In this document: piece by piece, positions 11,770 through 18,953 of the stretch
Layout: every line of letters starts with the position of its first letter
Position numbering within the stretch: position 1 is the first letter of the stretch
Assembly: GCF_900106565.1 (NCBI RefSeq)
Contig: NZ_FNNJ01000002.1
Coordinates: forward strand, 486,786-510,785
DNA from: Lutibacter oricola
Lineage (GTDB): Bacteria; Bacteroidota; Bacteroidia; Flavobacteriales; Flavobacteriaceae
Length of the DNA: 24,000 nt
Direction: 5' to 3'
Made by a program: the position numbers and the translations under genes
The notes under the pieces: generated by a model
The model's database searches: none
Told to the model about the DNA's origin: nothing
Seen by the model: only the letters and a program-made list of their open reading frames with translations

Positions 11770-12936
11770 ATGGATAAAATATTTAATAACACCGAAATAG
11801 CCTTTGCGTTAAAGACTAACGTTGAGTTAGATAGAGCTTTCTATTTATTTGAAATGATAAAACGAGAACCTTTAGTAAAAATTGGTACTGTAATGACCAA
11901 GTTTGCTTTAAAAACCCACTTACCTGTTGAAGGAATTATAAGGGCTACAGTTTTTGATCATTTTTGTGGTGGAGTTACTGAAGAAGATTGTATGACTGTT
12001 ATTGAAAAAATGTACACTAAAAGAGTACATTCTGTATTAGATTATTCTGCTGAAGGAAAAGAAGACGAGCAAATGTTTGATTTAACAATGGAAAAAACGT
12101 TAAACAACATTAAGTTTGGTAAAGAAAAGAATAGTGTGCCTTTTGCTGTATTTAAGCCTAGTGGATTTGGACGATTTAAAATTTATCAGAAAATTACAGA
12201 AGGAAAAGAACTTGATGCACACGAAACTGTAGAGTGGAAGCGTATAAAAGAACGTTATGATATTGTTTGCAAAGCTGCTTTTGATAGAGATGTTCCTTTG
12301 TTAATAGATGCAGAAGAAAGCTGGATGCAAACTGCAGCTGATGATTTAATTGAAGAAATGATGATGAAATACAATAAAACAAAAGTTATTGTATTTGGAA
12401 CACTTCAATTATATCGTTGGGATAGATTAGACTATCTTAAAAGCCTTCATAATAGAGCAAATGAACAAGGCTTTAAAATAGGTATGAAGCTAGTTAGAGG
12501 TGCTTATATGGAAAAAGAGCGCGAACGCGCAGAGAAAAAAGGTTATAAATCTCCTATTTGTGCTACAAAGCAAGACACAGATAATATGTATAATGAAGTA
12601 ATGACGTATATGTTTAAAAACATTGATAATATGGCGTTATTTGCTGGTACTCATAATGAAGAAAGTTCTTATTTATTAATGGATTTATTAGCTAAATCTG
12701 GTGTAGATAAGGACGATACTAGAGTATGGTTTGGGCAATTATATGGTATGAGTGATCATATTAGTTACAATTTATCTTCACACAATTATAATGTAGCCAA
12801 ATATTTACCTTATGGCCCCGTAAGAGATGTTATGCCGTATTTAATTAGAAGGGCAGAAGAGAATACATCCGTTGCAGGGCAAACAAGTAGAGAGCTAAAT
12901 TTACTAAAAACAGAGAGAAAACGACGAAAGTTATAA
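11770..12936 (+). CDS. Proline dehydrogenase family protein (monofunctional, PutA-type catalytic barrel)
   Basis: 388-aa ORF. Sequence blocks such as FDHFCGG, SVLDYSAEG, IDAEESWMQ, KLVRGAYMEKER, FAGTHNE and YLIRRAEENTS match the stand-alone ProDH family. Confidence 0.8.
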   Translation: MDKIFNNTEIAFALKTNVELDRAFYLFEMIKREPLVKIGTVMTKFALKTHLPVEGIIRATVFDHFCGGVTEEDCMTVIEKMYTKRVHSVLDYSAEGKEDEQMFDLTMEKTLNNIKFGKEKNSVPFAVFKPSGFGRFKIYQKITEGKELDAHETVEWKRIKERYDIVCKAAFDRDVPLLIDAEESWMQTAADDLIEEMMMKYNKTKVIVFGTLQLYRWDRLDYLKSLHNRANEQGFKIGMKLVRGAYMEKERERAEKKGYKSPICATKQDTDNMYNEVMTYMFKNIDNMALFAGTHNEESSYLLMDLLAKSGVDKDDTRVWFGQLYGMSDHISYNLSSHNYNVAKYLPYGPVRDVMPYLIRRAEENTSVAGQTSRELNLLKTERKRRKL

Positions 12937-13108: not shown

Positions 13109-14431
13109 TTAATCTTCGTCCTCTAAAGCGCGTTCTAAAAGCTTATCATTAAAGTTTTTAGAGCCTTTGGCACCTAATTTTTTAATGTTTTCCACTTTTC
13201 GAATTAGGTTACCATTACCAGTTAATTTTTTCATAGTTCCATCATAAGAGCCTTGCACAGTTTTTAGCTGATTTCCAACCTTAATAAGGTCGTTTGTTAA
13301 ATTCACAAATTGATCGTACAATCTACCCGCTTGTAATGCTATGTCTTGTGCGTTTCTTTGTTGTTTTTCATTATTCCACATACTATCAATAGTACGTAAA
13401 GTAGCTAAAAGCGTAGTTGGTGTAACAATAACTATATTTTTCTCAAATGCTTTGTTATACAGTTGGTTATCTTTATTCAGTGCAGCTGCAAACGCAGGCT
13501 CAATAGGTATAAATAACAATACAAAATCAGGAGAATCAATATCATATATATCTTGATATTTCTTTTCGCTTAATTGTTCAATATGTCTTTTTAAAGAGTT
13601 TACGTGTTCTTTTATTGCAATTTCTTTAGTTTCATCGGTATCAGCATTTACATATTGCTCATAAGCAGTAAGTGAAACTTTAGAATCAATAATCATCTTT
13701 TTTTCATCTGGTAAATGAATTACCACATCAGGTAGTATTCTTTTTCCTTCTTCATTTGTAAAGCTTTGTTGTACAAAATACTCGCTATCTTTCTCTAAAC
13801 CAGATTTTTCCAAAACACGTTCTAATACTAATTCTCCCCAGTTTCCTTGGGTTTTACTATCTCCTTTTAATGCTTTGGTTAAATTAATAGCCTCTTTACT
13901 CATTTGTAAATTCAGCTCTTTTAAACCAAGTAGTTGTTCTTTTAAAGCAGAGTGCATCCCTATACTTTCCTTTTGGGTGTCTTCAACTTTCTTTTCAAAT
14001 GTTTGAATTTTTTCTTGAAGCGGATTTAATATAGATTTTATGTTTTCTTTGTTCTGTTCTGTAAACTTAGACGATTTTTCTTCTAGTATTTTATTAGCTA
14101 AAATTTCAAAATCCTTCGTAAATTTTTCTTGTAGTTTTGAAACTTCTTCTTTATTTGAATCTAATTTTTCTTGTAAAGAATTTAATGCAGAATTTCGTTC
14201 AGCTAGAGTAATATCTAATTGATGTTTCTCTCCTGAAACTGATTCAATTGTGTGTTTTAACTCTTTAATAGTGTTAAAATTAGTGTCTTTTTCTTGAAGT
14301 AATAGTTTGCTTTTAGTTTCAAGTTCAGAAATTACTTTCTCATAACTATTTTTGGTTAAAAGTTTACCAATAACATATCCAATTACAGCAAAAAGAACTG
14401 CAATAATTCCAAAAATTAAATAGTTGTTCAT
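13109..14431 (-). CDS. rmuC: DNA recombination protein RmuC
   Basis: 440-aa ORF with an N-terminal transmembrane helix and a long coiled-coil. The C-terminal RmuC nuclease-like domain shows GNWGELVLERVLE...PDVVIHLP...IIDSKVSLTAY...FVLLFIP. Confidence 0.85.
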   Translation of the reverse strand: MNNYLIFGIIAVLFAVIGYVIGKLLTKNSYEKVISELETKSKLLLQEKDTNFNTIKELKHTIESVSGEKHQLDITLAERNSALNSLQEKLDSNKEEVSKLQEKFTKDFEILANKILEEKSSKFTEQNKENIKSILNPLQEKIQTFEKKVEDTQKESIGMHSALKEQLLGLKELNLQMSKEAINLTKALKGDSKTQGNWGELVLERVLEKSGLEKDSEYFVQQSFTNEEGKRILPDVVIHLPDEKKMIIDSKVSLTAYEQYVNADTDETKEIAIKEHVNSLKRHIEQLSEKKYQDIYDIDSPDFVLLFIPIEPAFAAALNKDNQLYNKAFEKNIVIVTPTTLLATLRTIDSMWNNEKQQRNAQDIALQAGRLYDQFVNLTNDLIKVGNQLKTVQGSYDGTMKKLTGNGNLIRKVENIKKLGAKGSKNFNDKLLERALEDED

Positions 14432-14473: not shown

Positions 14474-15976
14474 TTAATCTTTTTTTGAATTAGAAAATTC
14501 ATACTTCAATATTGTTTTTTGAAGTATTTTCCAATGATTTCTTAATTGTCTTTTTATTTCAGGAGCATCGAGCTCATCTGCAGCTCTATATGCATATCGT
14601 AAATAATTGCCTCTAAATTTTCGCTGAAAAGGAGTTGTAATTGCTTTTTCTTTTACAAACTCGGTTCTTGTTGAAGGTATAAGTCTTGATTTAACACCTT
14701 TAAAACTATATAACCTATATATTTTCCGTTTAAAAATAGGGGCGTCATCTAATAAATATTTTTCTTTTTGAATTTCAACTCTTTTATGTTTTCTTTTTAT
14801 AGATTCTTTCATTGTTCTATAAAACTTTGCTAAGTTCTTAGATTTTAGTAAAGTTTGATATCCATAAAACTCAAAACCTAAATAATTTAAAGGAATATTT
14901 TTAATTAAGCTATCTTCTTCAATTTTATAGGATTGCAATCTATTGTTATCAATTTTGAAAAGTGATTTTTCTGTTTTCTCAAATGATACTTTTAAATCAA
15001 TCTTATTAATTTCCTCTTCAACAACCTTTTCAATGATTGAAATTTGATCTTTTTTGCATATAACAACAATATCGTCAGAATATCTTCTATAAAATACGTT
15101 ATGTTTTAAAGTTAATCTTTCAATAATAGCTTCATCAAAAGAAAGCATATAAATATTAGCTAAAAGTGCGCTAATAGGTAATCCCTGTGGAATTCCAATT
15201 AATTTACCATCCTTTTTAACTTGGTTTTTATGAATTATTATATCAGAATCAATTAAATCTTTGATACTTTCAAAAAAAGTGTGTTTTCCTATTCTTTTTA
15301 ATCTAGCTAATTCTTTTTCATCAAAATGACCATTTTTAGTTTTCAAATCTTTCAGTTTTACATAAGAAAACCTTGTTATAGCTTTGAATAAATTGTAATG
15401 ATCTTTTGGTAACGTTTTAGTTCCTAATAATTTTGACCAAGCAAGTTTTAACTTTTTATGATTTAAGGTAGGGAAGAAGTTCTCAATATCTAAAACTAAG
15501 GCAACACAGTTTTGTCTTTTTTTAATCTCATTAAATACATCTTTAGCAAAGTGGACATTGTTTTTGAATTTAACTTTATCATCTGTTTCAATTTGTCTAT
15601 AAGCTGTAATTGAATTAGATAACTCAAAGTTTTTACTTAAATATTCTTCGTATTTGGGAGTAATTATTTGTTGTGCATAATATGAATATATGTGGGCATC
15701 AATATGAGAGGCATATAGAATCTTTCTTATTTTTGAATTAGAAACTATTTTATCATTTTCAATTTTTTTATGAGAACGTTTTATTTCTCCATTAAAATTA
15801 GATGTTTTATACCTTCTTTGCTTAATTTCTTTATAAATAAGAGGTGAAAAAGAATGCTTCGTAACTTTTTTAGAATTTGAAACATAATATAATACTCTTT
15901 TTCTAACTGATAATGGTGTTTTGTTAGAAAAATGAGGATATCCTCTGTCTTTAAACCAGTCTTTTTCTTTTATCAT
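14474..15976 (-). CDS. Stand-alone reverse transcriptase (RNA-directed DNA polymerase), UG/Abi or defence-associated (DRT-like) type; clade not assignable by eye
   Basis: All RT motifs are intact. Motif A is LVLDIENFFPTLNH (DIENFF at 15473..15490). Motif B is IPQGLPISALLANIYM (15171..15194). Motif C is RRYSDDIVVI (YSDD at 15071..15082). Motif E is NYLGFEF. The preferred start is the ATG at 15976 (MIKEKDWFKDRGYPHF), giving 500 aa. The track ORF extends 20 low-complexity codons further, to 16036. There is no maturase X/En domain, no retron VTG motif and no fused effector domain. Confidence 0.9.
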   Translation of the reverse strand: MIKEKDWFKDRGYPHFSNKTPLSVRKRVLYYVSNSKKVTKHSFSPLIYKEIKQRRYKTSNFNGEIKRSHKKIENDKIVSNSKIRKILYASHIDAHIYSYYAQQIITPKYEEYLSKNFELSNSITAYRQIETDDKVKFKNNVHFAKDVFNEIKKRQNCVALVLDIENFFPTLNHKKLKLAWSKLLGTKTLPKDHYNLFKAITRFSYVKLKDLKTKNGHFDEKELARLKRIGKHTFFESIKDLIDSDIIIHKNQVKKDGKLIGIPQGLPISALLANIYMLSFDEAIIERLTLKHNVFYRRYSDDIVVICKKDQISIIEKVVEEEINKIDLKVSFEKTEKSLFKIDNNRLQSYKIEEDSLIKNIPLNYLGFEFYGYQTLLKSKNLAKFYRTMKESIKRKHKRVEIQKEKYLLDDAPIFKRKIYRLYSFKGVKSRLIPSTRTEFVKEKAITTPFQRKFRGNYLRYAYRAADELDAPEIKRQLRNHWKILQKTILKYEFSNSKKD

Positions 15977-16447
15977 AGCTTTAAATAAAAAGTAAAAAAG
16001 TTCTCGCACGTATTTACAACAAAATAAAACGTACATCTTTTGAAGATTGAACCATTAGCCAAATTCTCGACTCACGCTGCATTTATACGTTAATATATCC
16101 TAATGAACTAGAAATAATATCAATTATGAAGCAAATAAGTTTAATTACCTCTGTGATACAAACAGTTCTCCAATTTCTTGACCTAAAGGTGAAAGAATGG
16201 CATAGAATTTGTAACTTTGTATTTGAATTAGTTTCTTATGCAACGGTGCTTAAGACATTAATTCAAATGATTACATCTTACCTAATCACCATATTTATTA
16301 ACCCTTTTATAATAAAAGGTTGGATTAAGTGATTGAAATTAATCAATACAATAGTTCAACAAATGTTTTATTTTCTTTAACTAAAGAACTTTCTTACTTT
16401 ATACTGTAAATTTAAGATTTTTAATTAATTTTATAGAAAAATTTGGT
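15977..16447 (-). ncRNA. Candidate RT-associated non-coding RNA/leader region (hypothetical; boundaries unknown)
   Basis: A 471-bp gap sits directly upstream of the RT in a genome whose other intergenic gaps are 3-250 bp. It contains several short hairpins: 16035-16047, 16175-16197, 16303-16319 and 16373-16388. The composite stem 16245-16254/16281-16290 has one position that is G.U only in the RT-sense transcript and A.C in the opposite sense. It also shows atypical stop-codon depletion. I recognised no consensus promoter. Confidence 0.3.
16126..16332 (+). CDS. Hypothetical 68-aa hydrophobic small protein (possible membrane peptide), antisense to the RT leader; may not be a real gene
   Basis: ORF MKQISLITSVIQTVLQFLDL...ICNFVFELVSYATVLKTLIQMITSYLITIFINPFII. 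Its frame is stop-free for 93 codons (16051..16329) in DNA of roughly 25% GC. I found no recognisable promoter or RBS. Confidence 0.25.
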   Translation: MKQISLITSVIQTVLQFLDLKVKEWHRICNFVFELVSYATVLKTLIQMITSYLITIFINPFIIKGWIK

Positions 16448-17203
16448 ATGAAAAATAAATATTCAGTAGGAAGTATTGTTACTTTCAAAACACACCCGTT
16501 ATTTAATGATTTCAGAATACAAGGAGATGGAAAATATGTACCTCCTGTAATGATGGTTAAAGAAGTTTTTATTGAAAATAATAAGAAAAGAACTCACGAT
16601 GAAGAAACTGGTAAAAAAATATCTGATAAGGTTAAATATACTTGTGTTTATTTTGATGATGATAAAAGTCAATTTACCGAAAACACAATTTATGAGAGTT
16701 TTTTAAGATCGTATAAAAAATTAAAAATAGAAAGAATTTCAGAAATTGGTGAATTAAGAGATGATACTGATACAATTATTAAAGAGATAAAAAGTTATTT
16801 TAAAAAACCATTAGTATATAAATTTGGTGGAATAGTTAGGTTTATCACAAAAAAAATAGAAATTTATAAGAAGCGTTCATCAAAAAAAATAACAGAAAAA
16901 AAAGGAGAAATAGAAAAGGATAATATTAAATCAACAATTCAATATGTTGTAAACTATGCTTCTCCTGACTTTGTAATGTGTGGTTTAAAGAAAAATGATG
17001 ATAAAAATTTATTTTATGAAAACGGTCAAGTAAAGAAACAAGTTTCGGAAACACTATTAAAAGTTAAGTGGTTTAATCCAATTCAGAAAAAATTTAGCGA
17101 ACAATTTTTACCAATTGAATTTTTTACAGATAGAATGAATTTTAAATCAGAAGTTTTAGAGGAGGAATTAGTATCAAAAGAGGTAACACCAAATCAAAGT
17201 TAG
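16448..17203 (+). CDS. Hypothetical lysine-rich protein with two tandem YodC/DUF2158-like small beta-barrel modules
   Basis: 251-aa ORF with a visible internal duplication. YSVGSIVTFKTHPLF...PPVMMVKEV...KYTCVYFDDDKSQFTENTIYESFL aligns with YKFGGIVRFITKKIE...SPDFVMCGLKK...LKVKWFNPIQKKFSEQFLPIEFF. This follows the G-x-V-x-hydrophobic...P-x-M-x-V...C/V-x-W/Y-F...F...L pattern of DUF2158. Confidence 0.7.
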   Translation: MKNKYSVGSIVTFKTHPLFNDFRIQGDGKYVPPVMMVKEVFIENNKKRTHDEETGKKISDKVKYTCVYFDDDKSQFTENTIYESFLRSYKKLKIERISEIGELRDDTDTIIKEIKSYFKKPLVYKFGGIVRFITKKIEIYKKRSSKKITEKKGEIEKDNIKSTIQYVVNYASPDFVMCGLKKNDDKNLFYENGQVKKQVSETLLKVKWFNPIQKKFSEQFLPIEFFTDRMNFKSEVLEEELVSKEVTPNQS

Positions 17204-17273: not shown

Positions 17274-17819
17274 ATGAAAACAATTACAAAATTTATATTT
17301 CATACTTTATTTGGTTGGAAAACAGTTGGCTTGTTACCAACAGATATAAAAAAGTATATAATTATTGGTGCACCTCATACCCATTGGCAAGATTTTTTTT
17401 TAGGTTTAGCTATAAAACTTTCTCAAAATTCACCTGCAAACTACATCGGTAAAGCTTCATTATTTAAACCACCTTTTGGATTTATTTTTAAAGCTTTAGG
17501 CGGTACTCCTGTTGATAGAAGTAAAAGCGCTAATAGAGTAGATGCTATTATTGATATTTTTAAAGAAAAAGAACAGTTTATATTAGCCTTATCTCCTGAA
17601 GGCACAAGAAAAAGAAACGACAAATGGAAAACAGGCTTTTACCATATTGCTAAAGGCGCAAACGTACCAATTGTTATGATGACTTTTGATTTTGGTAAAA
17701 AGCAGGTTAAACTTTCTGAACCTTATTATTTAACCAATGATATGGAAAAAGATATGAACTTTATTTATGATTTTTATAGAGGAGTAAAAGGTAAAATCCC
17801 TGAGTATTTCAACTTATAA
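17274..17819 (+). CDS. 1-acyl-sn-glycerol-3-phosphate acyltransferase family (PlsC-like) protein
   Basis: 181-aa ORF with the acyltransferase H-x4-D block (APHTHWQD) and the EGTR block (LSPEGTRKR). Confidence 0.75.
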   Translation: MKTITKFIFHTLFGWKTVGLLPTDIKKYIIIGAPHTHWQDFFLGLAIKLSQNSPANYIGKASLFKPPFGFIFKALGGTPVDRSKSANRVDAIIDIFKEKEQFILALSPEGTRKRNDKWKTGFYHIAKGANVPIVMMTFDFGKKQVKLSEPYYLTNDMEKDMNFIYDFYRGVKGKIPEYFNL

Positions 17820-17822
17820 AAC

Positions 17823-17855
17823 AAAAAAACCTACTAAAAATAGTAGGTTTTTTTT
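17823..17855. terminator. Bidirectional rho-independent terminator between the convergent acyltransferase and gcvT genes
   Basis: The sequence is A7-CCTACTA-aaaa-TAGTAGG-T8. The 7-bp G/C-containing stem can be extended by A/T pairs, and a U-run follows the hairpin on either strand. Confidence 0.8.
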
Positions 17856-17870
17856 ATGTCTATTTTAAAA

Positions 17871-18953
17871 TTACCCTTTATAAAAAGGCAATCTAACAAC
17901 TTTAGCTTTTAAAGTTTTCTTTCTTACTTGAATATATATTTCAGTATCTCTTTTAGAAAATTCTTTAGCAACATAACCTAAACCAATAGCTTTTTTTAGA
18001 GAAGGACTCATAGTTCCAGAAGTAACTTCTCCTATTTCATTTCCATCAGCATCAACAATAGCGTAGTGCTGACGAGGAATTCCTCTATCAATCATTTCAA
18101 ATGCCACTAATTTTTTAGTTACACCTTCTTCTTTTTGCTTTTTTAAAGCTTCAGAATTAGTAAAGTTCTTCGTAAACTTAGTAATCCACCCTAAACCAGC
18201 TTCAATAGGCGATGTTGTGTCGTTTATATCGTTACCGTATAAGCAATAACCCATTTCTAAACGTAAAGTATCACGAGCAGCTAAACCAATTGGTTTTATT
18301 CCGAAGTCTTTACCAGCTTCAAAAACTTTATTCCAAACTTGTTCAACTTCACTGTTTTTACAGTAAATTTCAAAACCACCAGAACCAGTATAACCCGTTG
18401 CCGAAATAATTACGTGATCAATACCAGCAAAATCGGCAACCTTAAATGTGTAAAACTTAATAGCCGATAAATCTTCCGAAGTTAAACTTTGCATTGCTTC
18501 AACAGCTTTTGGACCTTGAATAGCTAATAAAGAATAACCTTCAGAGATGTTTTTCATCTCAGCATTCATAGAATTATGAACAGAAATCCAGTTCCAATCT
18601 TTTTCTATATTAGAAGCATTTACAACTAATAAATAAGTTTCTTCTTTTACTCTGTAAACAATTAAATCGTCTACAATACCACCTTTATCGTTAGGTAAAC
18701 AACTATATTGTGCTTCTCCAATTTCTAATTTAGAAGCATCATTAGATGTTACAAACTGTATTAATTCTAATGCAAACTCTCCTTCAATTAAGAATTCTCC
18801 CATATGCGAAACATCAAAAACACCAACTCCAGTTCTTACAGTTTCGTGTTCAGCGTTAACTCCTTCATATTGTACTGGCATATTGTAACCAGCAAATGGT
18901 ACCATTTTTGCACCTAATTGTTCATGTATATGCGATAATGCAGTATTTTTCAT
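17871..18953 (-). CDS. gcvT: Glycine cleavage system aminomethyltransferase (T protein)
   Basis: 360-aa ORF whose sequence is typical of GcvT throughout: [37 protein letters not shown] and [11 protein letters not shown]. Confidence 0.95.

What the first reader, a model, noticed from the sequence alone, without database searches (positions are those of the whole stretch)
15977..16447. 471-bp gene-poor leader directly upstream of the RT: candidate structured ncRNA/template with stop-codon depletion on both strands
This is by far the longest non-annotated gap in the window; other gaps are 3-252 bp. It sits exactly where DRT2/DRT9/DRT3-type systems encode their essential ncRNA. Seen directly: in DNA of roughly 25% GC, one plus-strand frame is stop-free for 93 codons (16051..16329). 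One RT-sense frame is stop-free for 50 codons (16086..16235) and another for 34 codons (16148..16249). Between 16146 and 16227 only one RT-sense stop triplet occurs in any frame. My rough estimate assumes a ~0.08 stop probability per codon. On that basis a 93-codon open frame somewhere in a 471-bp region has a chance of a few percent. In DRT2, rolling-circle reverse transcription of a ~120-nt ncRNA segment creates a tandem-repeat cDNA carrying a never-ending ORF. A template for that mechanism must be stop-free in one frame. I cannot tell which segment or strand, if any, would be templated here. Several short hairpins exist (16035-47, 16175-97, 16303-19, 16373-88). A composite stem 16245-54/16281-90 pairs better in the RT-sense RNA (G.U) than in the antisense RNA (A.C). 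All of these stems are AT-rich and could arise by chance.
Basis: partly seen in the sequence, partly recalled or inferred. Interest (0 to 1): 0.8.

Follow-up and report, generated by a model that had tools for sequence, protein, structure and literature searches.

The report
DRT2-type template RNA upstream of RT
The 471-bp "empty" gap encodes a roughly 415-nt folded RNA that belongs to a DRT2-type antiviral reverse transcriptase, and its middle is a 186-nt template that would read as an endless gene if copied head-to-tail, extending a recently discovered defence mechanism to a little-studied branch found in marine Flavobacteria.

Summary
The gap 15977-16447 lies between a DRT2/UG2 reverse transcriptase (minus strand) and a divergent YodC-like gene. 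This is the YodC/RmuC-associated "variant 2" of UG2.

Comparison with 36 related Bacteroidota loci shows a minus-strand RNA of about 415 nt (~16400 to ~15985). It has a conserved 5' scaffold and a conserved 3' scaffold, held by eight covarying helices. These include a 15-bp terminal helix and a long-range pseudoknot-forming helix.

Between the scaffolds lies a hypervariable template, 16089-16274 (186 nt), flanked by a short direct repeat (GTA...GTA).
- Template length is a multiple of three in 31 of 36 aligned loci and in the distant L036. Scaffold lengths show no such rule.
- Every one of those templates has exactly one stop-free frame on the strand antisense to the RNA, with an in-frame ATG.

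This is the anatomy of a DRT2 "neo" template. It differs in size (186 vs about 120 nt), in repeat motif (GTA vs ACA) and in promoter type. A Bacteroidota-type promoter forms only across the repeat junction in about a third of the loci, but not visibly in this window.

No cDNA or expression data exist, so rolling-circle copying is inferred. I rate it a new variant of a known kind.

The parts
15985..16400 (-). Whole predicted ncRNA (about 415 nt), RT-sense. Both ends are approximate.
   Evidence: The 5' end is inferred from the conserved -7-like box and the start of helix H1. The 3' end is inferred from the end of H1. The RT-sense RNA folds at -97.1 kcal/mol, z = -5.15. The opposite strand gives -73.7, z = -2.9.
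16406..16414 (-). TAAATTTAC, a conserved TAnnTTTAC box. It resembles the Bacteroidota -7 promoter element (TAnnTTTG) and lies just upstream of the RNA 5' end.
   Evidence: Nearly invariant across 36 loci. Its reading as a promoter rests on my knowledge of the Bacteroidota consensus; I did not test it.
16275..16399 (-). 5' scaffold. H1 5' strand 16385-16399; H5 5' strand 16352-16358; hairpin H2 16332-16347; H3 16323-16329 pairing with 16281-16287; hairpin H4 16303-16319.
   Evidence: Alignment A1; pair counts; an independent RNAalifold run recovers H1, H2, H3, H5 and H6; coordinates.
16272..16274 (-). GTA-1, the proposed 5' end of the template (included in the repeat unit).
   Evidence: The G is invariant. 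T and A each match the downstream copy in 83% of loci. In L008 an in-frame stop lies immediately outside it.
16089..16274 (-). Proposed template, 186 nt (= 62 codons). The reverse complement (plus strand) is the repeat unit.
   Evidence: The homologous interval is 105/180/183/186/189/192 nt in 31 of 36 loci and 177 nt in L036. Each interval is stop-free in one antisense frame. It is hypervariable: the window's unit is at random-level identity to all others. It is strongly self-folding, with mean z = -3.3.
16086..16088 (-). GTA-2, the proposed re-priming site just 3' of the template (not in the unit).
   Evidence: Conserved ACGTA. In L001 an in-frame stop lies 3 nt outside it.
15990..16085 (-). 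3' scaffold. H7 16074-16077 pairing with 16008-16011; hairpin H6 16057-16072; H5 3' strand 16048-16054 (crosses H7, giving a pseudoknot); hairpin H8 16035-16047; H1 3' strand 15990-16004.
16051..16329 (+). Its core (16089-16274) is the neo-like frame. The extensions into both scaffolds are incidental.
   Evidence: The frame used over the conserved flanks differs between loci.
16126..16128 (+). First in-frame ATG of the unit (unit position 38). A second in-frame ATG lies at 16267-16269.
   Evidence: All 31 units have at least one in-frame ATG.
16212..16219 (+). TAACTTTG, a perfect Bacteroidota -7 consensus inside the unit on the neo-sense strand. It has no TTG at proper spacing.
   Evidence: Function untested.
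14474..15976 (-). DRT2/UG2 reverse transcriptase, 500 aa.
   Evidence: PADLOC Drt2 E = 1e-135. Pfam RVT_1. Solved K. pneumoniae Drt2 (PDB 9c0i) E = 3.7e-53.
16448..17203 (+). YodC-like RT-associated protein, 251 aa, divergent from the RT.
   Evidence: PADLOC RTasYodC E = 2.9e-92. Present upstream of the RT in 35 related loci and in L036.
13109..14431 (-). RmuC-family protein, 440 aa, directly downstream of the RT.
   Evidence: PADLOC RTasRmuC E = 5.8e-228. Pfam RmuC. Downstream of the RT in 30 related loci.

Best explanation
The gap encodes the non-coding RNA partner of a DRT2-type reverse transcriptase.

Shown by comparison:
- The RNA is made from the RT strand.
- Its two ends pair, and a conserved 5' scaffold and 3' scaffold enclose a fast-evolving 186-nt loop.
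- That loop is kept at a length divisible by three.
- It is flanked by a GTA...GTA direct repeat.
- It is free of stop codons in one frame of the complementary strand and contains an in-frame ATG.

Inferred by analogy with K. pneumoniae DRT2:
- The RT binds the scaffolds and copies the loop from GTA-2 towards GTA-1.
- The cDNA 3' end (...TAC) re-anneals at GTA-2, and the loop is copied again and again.
- After second-strand synthesis, the head-to-tail cDNA carries a repeat-spanning open reading frame of 62 codons per unit: LIYPNELEIISIMKQISLITSVIQTVLQFLDLKVKEWHRICNFVFELVSYATVLKTLIQMIT.
- Expression of this frame during phage infection arrests the cell.

Unknown: the roles of the conserved YodC-like and RmuC neighbours.
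For: (1) RT identity. PADLOC Drt2 E = 1e-135. Solved Drt2 9c0i E = 3.7e-53. The YodC and RmuC neighbours match the models for UG2 'variant 2'.

(2) Structured RNA on the RT strand.
- 56 pairs in 8 helices are 89.4% paired, against 79.7% in shuffles (0 of 500 reach it).
- 45 of 56 pairs show changes on both sides, against 23.8 expected.
- The covariation score is 0.341, against 0.169 in shuffles and at most 0.161 when partners are slid.
- RNAalifold independently finds the terminal and long-range helices.
- G.U cells outnumber A.C cells 182 to 80.
- Fold z = -5.15 on the RT strand, -2.9 on the other.

(3) Rule of three.
- The distance between scaffold anchors is 129/204/207/210/213/216 nt in 31 of 36 loci.
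- 5'-scaffold lengths split 11/12/13 over the three residues mod 3 (my count from the lengths printed).
- The distant L036 (RT 46% identical, different gene order) gives 177 nt.

(4) Stop-free frame.
- All 31 units have exactly one stop-free antisense frame: 0 stops, against 11.2 and 4.2 per unit in the other two frames.
- The stretch upstream of the first in-frame ATG is open in 31 of 31 loci, against 3 of 31 and 9 of 31 in the other frames. An ordinary gene does not need this.

(5) All three frames relative to the junction are used in different loci. The flank conservation is therefore at nucleotide level, not protein level.

(6) Stops lie immediately outside GTA-1 or GTA-2 in some loci.

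(7) Junction promoter. In 12 loci from about four unrelated template families, a -7 box starts the unit. TTG lies 19-22 nt upstream in 10 of 12 only in the head-to-tail arrangement, and in 0 of 12 in the genome arrangement.

(8) Published DRT2 places the neo ORF antisense to the ncRNA, with unit length divisible by three and a weakly conserved template.
Against: - There are no RNA, cDNA or phage data for this clade. Rolling-circle copying, template ends and translation are all inferred.
- Five loci of one subclade have units of 181, 182 or 185 nt and no endless frame.
- In this window, no promoter spanning the junction is seen.
- Substitutions between related units show no third-codon-position excess (0.281/0.255/0.280 per site). 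There is thus no direct signature of selection on the protein sequence.
- The loci are related, so counts of loci overstate the number of independent events.
- The flanking repeat is only 3 nt.
- The template ends rest on alignment anchors that I chose.
Confidence: 0.75

Rival explanations
1. The plus-strand frame is an ordinary small gene (16126..16332, 68 aa, hydrophobic). It would be transcribed from the chromosome, perhaps together with the YodC-like gene, and merely overlap an antisense RNA.
For: An ATG-to-stop ORF exists in the window. An open frame with an ATG sits at the same place in all 36 loci. The five exceptional loci behave like finite ORFs.
Against: - The frame is kept open upstream of the ATG in 31 of 31 loci, against 3 and 9 of 31 in the other frames.
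- The rule of three applies to anchors that lie outside the ATG-to-stop ORF.
- C-terminal ends fall in different frames and at different places over a nucleotide-conserved RNA scaffold.
- There is no codon-position bias.
- The sequence is unrelated even between genomes whose RT is 84% identical.
- No family match in Pfam or PADLOC.
Confidence: 0.08
2. The RNA is a real DRT2-type scaffold, but its cDNA product works differently in this YodC/RmuC clade. For example, the product could be a repeated DNA or a tandem array of finite small genes acted on by RmuC, rather than one never-ending protein.
For: - Tang et al. report that Neo annotation in divergent DRT2 clades was 'more challenging', suggesting alternative mechanisms.
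- Five loci give finite 56-58-aa ORFs that end just past the junction.
- There is no selection signal on the protein sequence.
- Two extra conserved genes accompany the RT.
Against: 31 of 36 loci plus L036 keep both divisibility by three and a stop-free frame across the junction. A product that is not translated through the junction would have no reason to keep these.
Confidence: 0.12
3. A type I toxin-antitoxin-like pair: a small hydrophobic toxin ORF on the plus strand, held in check by an abundant antisense RNA, with no role for reverse transcription.
For: The peptide is hydrophobic and predicted helical. The structured RNA is fully antisense to it.
Against: - The RNA scaffolds extend about 125 nt and 100 nt beyond the ORF core, and their ends pair with each other.
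- The element is strictly linked to a DRT2 RT in all loci.
- This model does not predict the rule of three or the open leader.
Confidence: 0.03
4. The gap is only a divergent promoter/5'-UTR region, and the open frame is chance in AT-rich DNA.
For: Two divergent genes flank the gap. Rfam finds nothing. Simple sigma-70 and terminator scans are at background.
Against: The covariation, the conservation pattern, the open frame present in 36 of 36 loci and the shuffle test all contradict it.
Confidence: 0.01

Closest known systems
Klebsiella pneumoniae DRT2 ncRNA and neo template (Wilkinson et al. 2024, PMC12039810; Tang et al. 2024, PMC11100668)
   Same: - Homologous RT.
- The ncRNA lies directly upstream on the RT strand.
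- Conserved, pseudoknotted 5' and 3' scaffolds surround a weakly conserved template.
- A 3-nt direct repeat sits at the template ends.
- Unit length is divisible by three.
- The stop-free frame with an ATG is antisense to the RNA.
- The repeat peptide is hydrophobic and predicted helical.
- In a subset of loci, a promoter is completed only across the junction.
   Different: - RNA of about 415 nt, against 280.
- Unit of 180-192 nt (186 here), against 111-129.
- Repeat GTA, against ACA.
- A 15-bp helix joins the RNA ends.
- No detectable sequence similarity of the RNA.
- Promoter elements, where seen, are Bacteroidota-type (TTG-N19-20-TAnnTTTG), with the -7 box at the very start of the unit.
- RT of 500 aa, against 425.
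- Conserved YodC-like and RmuC genes accompany the RT.
- One subclade lacks the endless frame.
UG2 'variant 2' (RT + YodC cluster 315 ± RmuC cluster 433) of Mestre et al. 2022 (PMC9226505)
   Same: Exactly this gene set. The PADLOC models RTasYodC and RTasRmuC match at full length.
   Different: That work classified the proteins and reported group-specific ncRNA predictions upstream of UG2 RTs. It did not report a template, a repeat unit or an ORF. Its supplementary figures could not be read here.
DRT9 and DRT10 (other Class 2 UG RTs with an ncRNA; PMC12483538, PMC12632851)
   Same: An RT plus an upstream structured ncRNA that templates repetitive DNA.
   Different: They make protein-primed homopolymer or short tandem repeats and need no coding frame. 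The RT here scores as Drt2, and neither a Drt9 nor a UG28 model is among the 25 best of its 35 PADLOC matches.
Retron msr/msd RNA
   Same: A structured RNA next to its RT whose ends pair, with an internal segment that is reverse transcribed.
   Different: Retron RT models score far lower (E about 1e-11 to 1e-14). Retrons have no rule of three and no ORF in the cDNA.

Membership tests
DRT2 (UG2) defence system | Reverse transcriptase of the UG2/Drt2 clade | tested here: met
   PADLOC Drt2 E = 1e-135 and 6e-99. Solved Drt2 chains 9c0i/9lje E about 1e-53 over residues 6-427.
DRT2 (UG2) defence system | Structured ncRNA encoded immediately upstream of the RT on the same strand | tested here: met
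   Covariation in 8 helices; RNAalifold; G.U excess on the RT strand; fold z = -5.15. Transcription itself was not tested.
DRT2 (UG2) defence system | Conserved scaffolds, including a pseudoknot, flanking a poorly conserved template | tested here: met
   The scaffold is 87-93% identical between genomes whose templates are at random-level identity. Helix H5 crosses H7. Homology of individual helices to the K. pneumoniae RNA was not tested.
DRT2 (UG2) defence system | Short direct repeat (ACA...ACA) at the template 5' end and just 3' of the template, for template jumping | tested here: inconclusive
   A repeat exists at the equivalent places but reads GTA...GTA (G 100%, T 83%, A 83%). Covariation within loci beyond the consensus is weak (P = 0.04). 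Actual jumping cannot be tested here.
DRT2 (UG2) defence system | Repeat unit divisible by three, with one stop-free frame antisense to the ncRNA that spans the junction and contains a start codon | tested here: met
   Window unit: 186 nt, frame open, ATGs at 16126 and 16267. The same holds in 31 of 36 loci and in L036. It is not met in 5 loci of one subclade.
DRT2 (UG2) defence system | Promoter reconstituted only across the repeat junction | tested here: inconclusive
   Not seen in the window, where there is only an internal -7 box at 16212-16219. It is seen in 10 of 12 loci that carry a -7 box at the start of the unit.
DRT2 (UG2) defence system | RT-dependent concatemeric cDNA, phage-triggered double-stranded product and growth arrest | not testable with these tools
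   Needs cDNA sequencing and phage assays.
UG2 variant 2 (Mestre et al. 2022) | UG2 RT co-located with a YodC-domain protein, in some members also with a TM-RmuC protein | tested here: met
   RTasYodC E = 2.9e-92 and RTasRmuC E = 5.8e-228. Conserved across related loci. Description.
Rfam RNA families | Match to a curated covariance model | tested here: not met
   Best hits score 15-17 bits against gathering thresholds of 50-64.

The most novel reading that the evidence does not exclude
In the YodC/RmuC-associated branch of DRT2, the template is a rapidly replaced cassette. It is unrelated between genomes whose RT is 84% identical and whose scaffold is about 90% identical. In one subclade the head-to-tail cDNA would encode a tandem array of complete 56-58-aa genes, with a stop just past the junction, rather than a never-ending ORF. 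That would mean endlessness is dispensable. The output of these systems, possibly processed by RmuC or read out through YodC, would then be more varied than the K. pneumoniae paradigm.
Probability: 0.2. Interest if true: 0.75.

Novelty: new variant of a known kind. Interest (0 to 1): 0.6.

Why it matters
[quoted passage not shown] The authors noted that Neo could not be readily annotated in divergent clades.

This locus gives a concrete, testable template for a Bacteroidota clade:
- exact ends (16089..16274);
- the predicted junction sequence;
- the repeat peptide;
- the RNA helices.

It also shows which features are general and which are lineage-specific.
- General: scaffolds around a variable loop, a 3-nt flanking repeat, the rule of three, and an antisense stop-free frame.
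- Lineage-specific: motif sequence, unit size, promoter type, and accessory YodC/RmuC genes.

In addition, such gaps should not be annotated as empty, nor the plus-strand frame called as an ordinary 68-aa gene.

Tried and rejected
- **Rfam scan of the gap.** Only sub-threshold noise.
- **Sigma-70 promoter and terminator scan.** At background, and the wrong promoter type for this phylum.
- **8-nt direct repeat TACATCTT** (16032-39 and 16272-79, 240 nt apart) as template ends. Rejected because the in-frame TGA at 16048 lies inside it and the identity beyond TGTA is specific to this window.
- **A third conserved TGTA after hairpin H8 as the jump site.** This gives an endless frame in only 4 of 35 loci.
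- **ATAAAT shared by both flanks as the repeat.** The spacing is 212 nt, which is not divisible by three.
- **Junction-spanning promoter in the window.** None found. Counts of -7-like boxes are equal on the two strands (69 vs 65).
- **Codon-position test for protein-level selection.** Negative.
- **RT-sense open frames.** Within chance.
- **AlphaFold of three repeats.** All-helical but low confidence (pLDDT 54), so weak evidence only.
- **Mestre et al. supplementary ncRNA figures.** Not held as text.
- **Literature search for DRT2 together with YodC.** No paper.

Full report
**Setting**

- The gap 15977..16447 separates a minus-strand reverse transcriptase (14474..15976) from a plus-strand gene (16448..17203).
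- The RT scores as Drt2 in PADLOC (E = 1e-135). It aligns to the solved K. pneumoniae Drt2 RT (9c0i, E = 3.7e-53).
- The plus-strand neighbour matches the PADLOC model RTasYodC (E = 2.9e-92). The gene downstream of the RT (13109..14431) matches RTasRmuC (E = 5.8e-228) and Pfam RmuC.
- This gene set is the second variant of UG2 described by Mestre et al. 2022.
- In published DRT2, a 280-nt ncRNA upstream of the RT carries a 120-nt template flanked by ACA...ACA. The template is copied into head-to-tail cDNA. The never-ending ORF (neo) lies on the strand antisense to the ncRNA.
- With the RT on the minus strand, a neo-type frame is therefore expected on the plus strand.

**Observation**

- The 93-codon plus-strand frame (16051..16329) was never reached in 300 shuffles: mean longest frame 43.7 codons, maximum 86.
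- The RT-sense frames (50 and 34 codons) are within chance.

**Related loci**

- A scan of one genome per species returned 39 loci, mostly Flavobacteriaceae, with RT identity of 46-84%.
- 35 of them have the YodC-like gene divergent from the RT at a near-constant distance: 438-520 bp by approximate boundaries, and 378 bp in L026.
- RmuC follows the RT in 30 related loci, while the outer flanks differ.
- The strand antisense to the RT carries a 60-128-codon open frame at the same place in all 36 sequences, the window included.

**Conservation pattern**

- A nearly invariant TAnnTTTAC box (window 16414..16406, minus strand).
- A conserved 5' region down to ...GATTAGnnnnnnTGTA.
- A middle of about 186 nt that cannot be aligned between subgroups.
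- A conserved 3' region from ACGTA to about 14 nt before the RT start.
- The window's template is at random-level identity to every other template (60-69% against a shuffled baseline of 62%). Its nearest relatives nevertheless share 84% RT identity and 87-93% scaffold identity.

**RNA structure**

I joined the two conserved regions without the template into alignment A1. I then tested eight helices taken from a column-pair scan.
- The structure is 89.4% paired, against 79.7% in shuffles.
- 45 of 56 pairs show changes on both sides, against 23.8 expected.
- The covariation score is 0.341, against 0.169 in shuffles. No shuffle of 500 reached any observed measure.
- Sliding the partners gives a covariation score of at most 0.161.
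- RNAalifold, run independently on A1, recovers the terminal helix, the long-range helix and three hairpins.

The helices in window coordinates:

| Helix | Position | Note |
|---|---|---|
| H1 | 16399..16385 with 16004..15990 | 15 bp; joins the RNA ends |
| H5 | 16358..16352 with 16054..16048 | Crosses H7, giving a pseudoknot |
| H7 | 16077..16074 with 16011..16008 | |
| H2, H4, H6, H8 | local hairpins | |
| H3 | 16329..16323 with 16287..16281 | |

- G.U cells outnumber A.C cells 182 to 80, so the RNA is RT-sense.
- The 416-nt RT-sense RNA folds at -97.1 kcal/mol (z = -5.15). The opposite strand gives -73.7 (z = -2.9).
- Templates are themselves strongly folded in RT sense (mean z = -3.3; 27 of 36 below -2). 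In many loci the minimum-energy fold shows a hairpin of roughly 50 nt starting a few bases after GTA-1, even though the sequences are unrelated.

**Template and frame**

- The distance between a 5' anchor (GATTAG) and a 3' anchor (GCGTGAG) is 129, 204, 207, 210, 213 or 216 nt in 31 of 36 loci.
- 5'-scaffold lengths take many values and split 11/12/13 over the residues mod 3 (my count from the lengths printed).
- A conserved G(T/A)A lies 13 nt after the 5' anchor, and a conserved GTA lies 11 nt before the 3' anchor. The G is invariant at both sites. T and A each match in 83% of loci.
- Taking the unit from GTA-1 (included) to the base before GTA-2 gives 105-192 nt, and 186 nt in the window (16089..16274).
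- All 31 units divisible by three have exactly one frame that stays open when the unit is joined head to tail. Each has an in-frame ATG.
- Stops per unit are 0, 11.2 and 4.2 in the three frames.
- The segment from the unit start to the first in-frame ATG (mean 39 nt) is open in 31 of 31 loci in that frame. In the other two frames it is open in 3 and 9 of 31.
- All three frames relative to the junction are used in different loci (19, 9 and 3 loci). The conserved flanks are read in different frames, or hit a stop. Flank conservation is therefore not protein conservation.
- In L008 a stop abuts GTA-1. In L001 a stop lies 3 nt beyond GTA-2.
- The distant locus L036 (RT 46% identical, YodC on the same strand as the RT) has the same scaffold motifs. 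Its GTT...ACGTT spacing is 177 nt, with an endless frame.

**Promoter**

- In 12 loci from about four unrelated template families, the unit begins with a Bacteroidota-type -7 box (TAnnTTTG or a near match).
- A TTG lies 19-22 nt upstream in 10 of 12 when units are joined head to tail, and in 0 of 12 in the chromosomal arrangement. This mirrors the junction-dependent promoter of K. pneumoniae DRT2, but in the host's own promoter dialect.
- The consensus I used comes from my knowledge of Bacteroidota promoters, not from a tool.
- In the window no junction-spanning promoter is visible. The only strong element is TAACTTTG at 16212..16219, inside the unit.
- If that box works, the chromosomal copy would yield only a 21-codon ORF from the ATG at 16267 to the stop at 16330. 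The concatemer would yield an endless one. This last point is inference.

**Exceptions and weak points**

- Five loci of one subclade (L003, L004, L007, L012, L021) have units of 181, 182 or 185 nt.
  - Their indels lie between GTA-2 and the ATG.
  - The head-to-tail product would encode a finite 56-58-aa ORF ending NTSN(N)K just past the junction.
  - Oddly, in these five the distance from GTA-1 to a third conserved TGTA after H8 is 237 or 240 nt. I cannot explain this.
- Substitutions between related units show no third-position excess. Openness, length and an ATG are conserved, but the peptide sequence is not. This fits published remarks on Neo but is no positive proof of translation.
- A three-repeat AlphaFold model is all-helical at low confidence (pLDDT 54).
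- Nothing here shows transcription, cDNA synthesis or defence.

**Comparison and novelty**

- The locus passes the DRT2 tests that sequence can address: RT clade, upstream same-strand structured RNA, scaffold/template layout, and unit divisible by three with an antisense stop-free frame and ATG.
- It differs in repeat motif, unit and RNA size, the terminal helix, promoter type and accessory genes.
- Tang et al. state that Neo annotation in divergent DRT2 clades was 'more challenging'.
- No paper in the library combines DRT2 and YodC.
- I therefore rate it a new variant of a known kind.
- My confidence is high that a structured DRT2-type RNA is present, about 0.75 for the rolling-circle endless-ORF reading, and about 0.55 for the exact ends 16089..16274.

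Noticed in passing
window 16089-16274, compared with L001 and L002: The template is unrelated (random-level identity) between genomes whose RT is 84% identical and whose RNA scaffold is 87-93% identical. L002's template instead resembles those of Formosa and Algibacter loci (L022, L030). This suggests cassette replacement or very fast divergence.
   Followed up: partly
L003, L004, L007, L012, L021 (upstream regions): In this one subclade the unit is not divisible by three. The head-to-tail product would encode a finite 56-58-aa ORF ending NTSN(N)K just after the junction. In the same five loci, the distance from GTA-1 to a third conserved TGTA after hairpin H8 is 237 or 240 nt.
   Followed up: partly
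window 16032-16039 and 16272-16279: An 8-nt direct repeat TACATCTT lies 240 nt apart. One copy spans GTA-1 and the other the 3' side of hairpin H8. Only the TGTA part is shared in other loci.
   Followed up: yes
window 13109-14431 (-): An RmuC-family gene with an N-terminal hydrophobic segment directly follows the RT in 30 related loci, while the outer flanks change. It looks like part of the module. Its role is unknown.
   Followed up: partly
window 16448-17203 (+); L036 1951-2565: The YodC-like gene is divergent from the RT in 35 loci. In the distant L036 it lies on the same strand, upstream of the RNA. The link to the RT is therefore kept but the orientation is not.
   Followed up: partly
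window 15977-16036 (-): The longest ORF of the RT starts at an ATG at 16036 and would add 20 residues overlapping the RNA 3' scaffold. Homologues show the true start at 15976, so gene callers may over-extend the RT.
   Followed up: yes
window 16212-16219 (+): A perfect Bacteroidota -7 consensus TAACTTTG lies inside the template on the neo-sense strand, 47 nt before the in-frame ATG at 16267. It has no TTG at proper spacing.
   Followed up: partly
templates of all 36 loci (RT sense): In many loci the minimum-energy fold of the template shows a hairpin of roughly 50 nt starting a few bases after GTA-1, although the sequences are unrelated. The same bases must also stay stop-free on the other strand.
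   Followed up: partly
window 17274-18953 and 11770-12936: The flanking genes look like housekeeping genes: an acyltransferase (Pfam Acyltransferase), and ORFs that by eye resemble the glycine-cleavage T protein and a proline-dehydrogenase. The acyltransferase and the glycine-cleavage-like ORF are shared only with some of the related loci (Lutibacter, Tenacibaculum, Polaribacter). The module does not sit in an obvious defence island here.
   Followed up: partly
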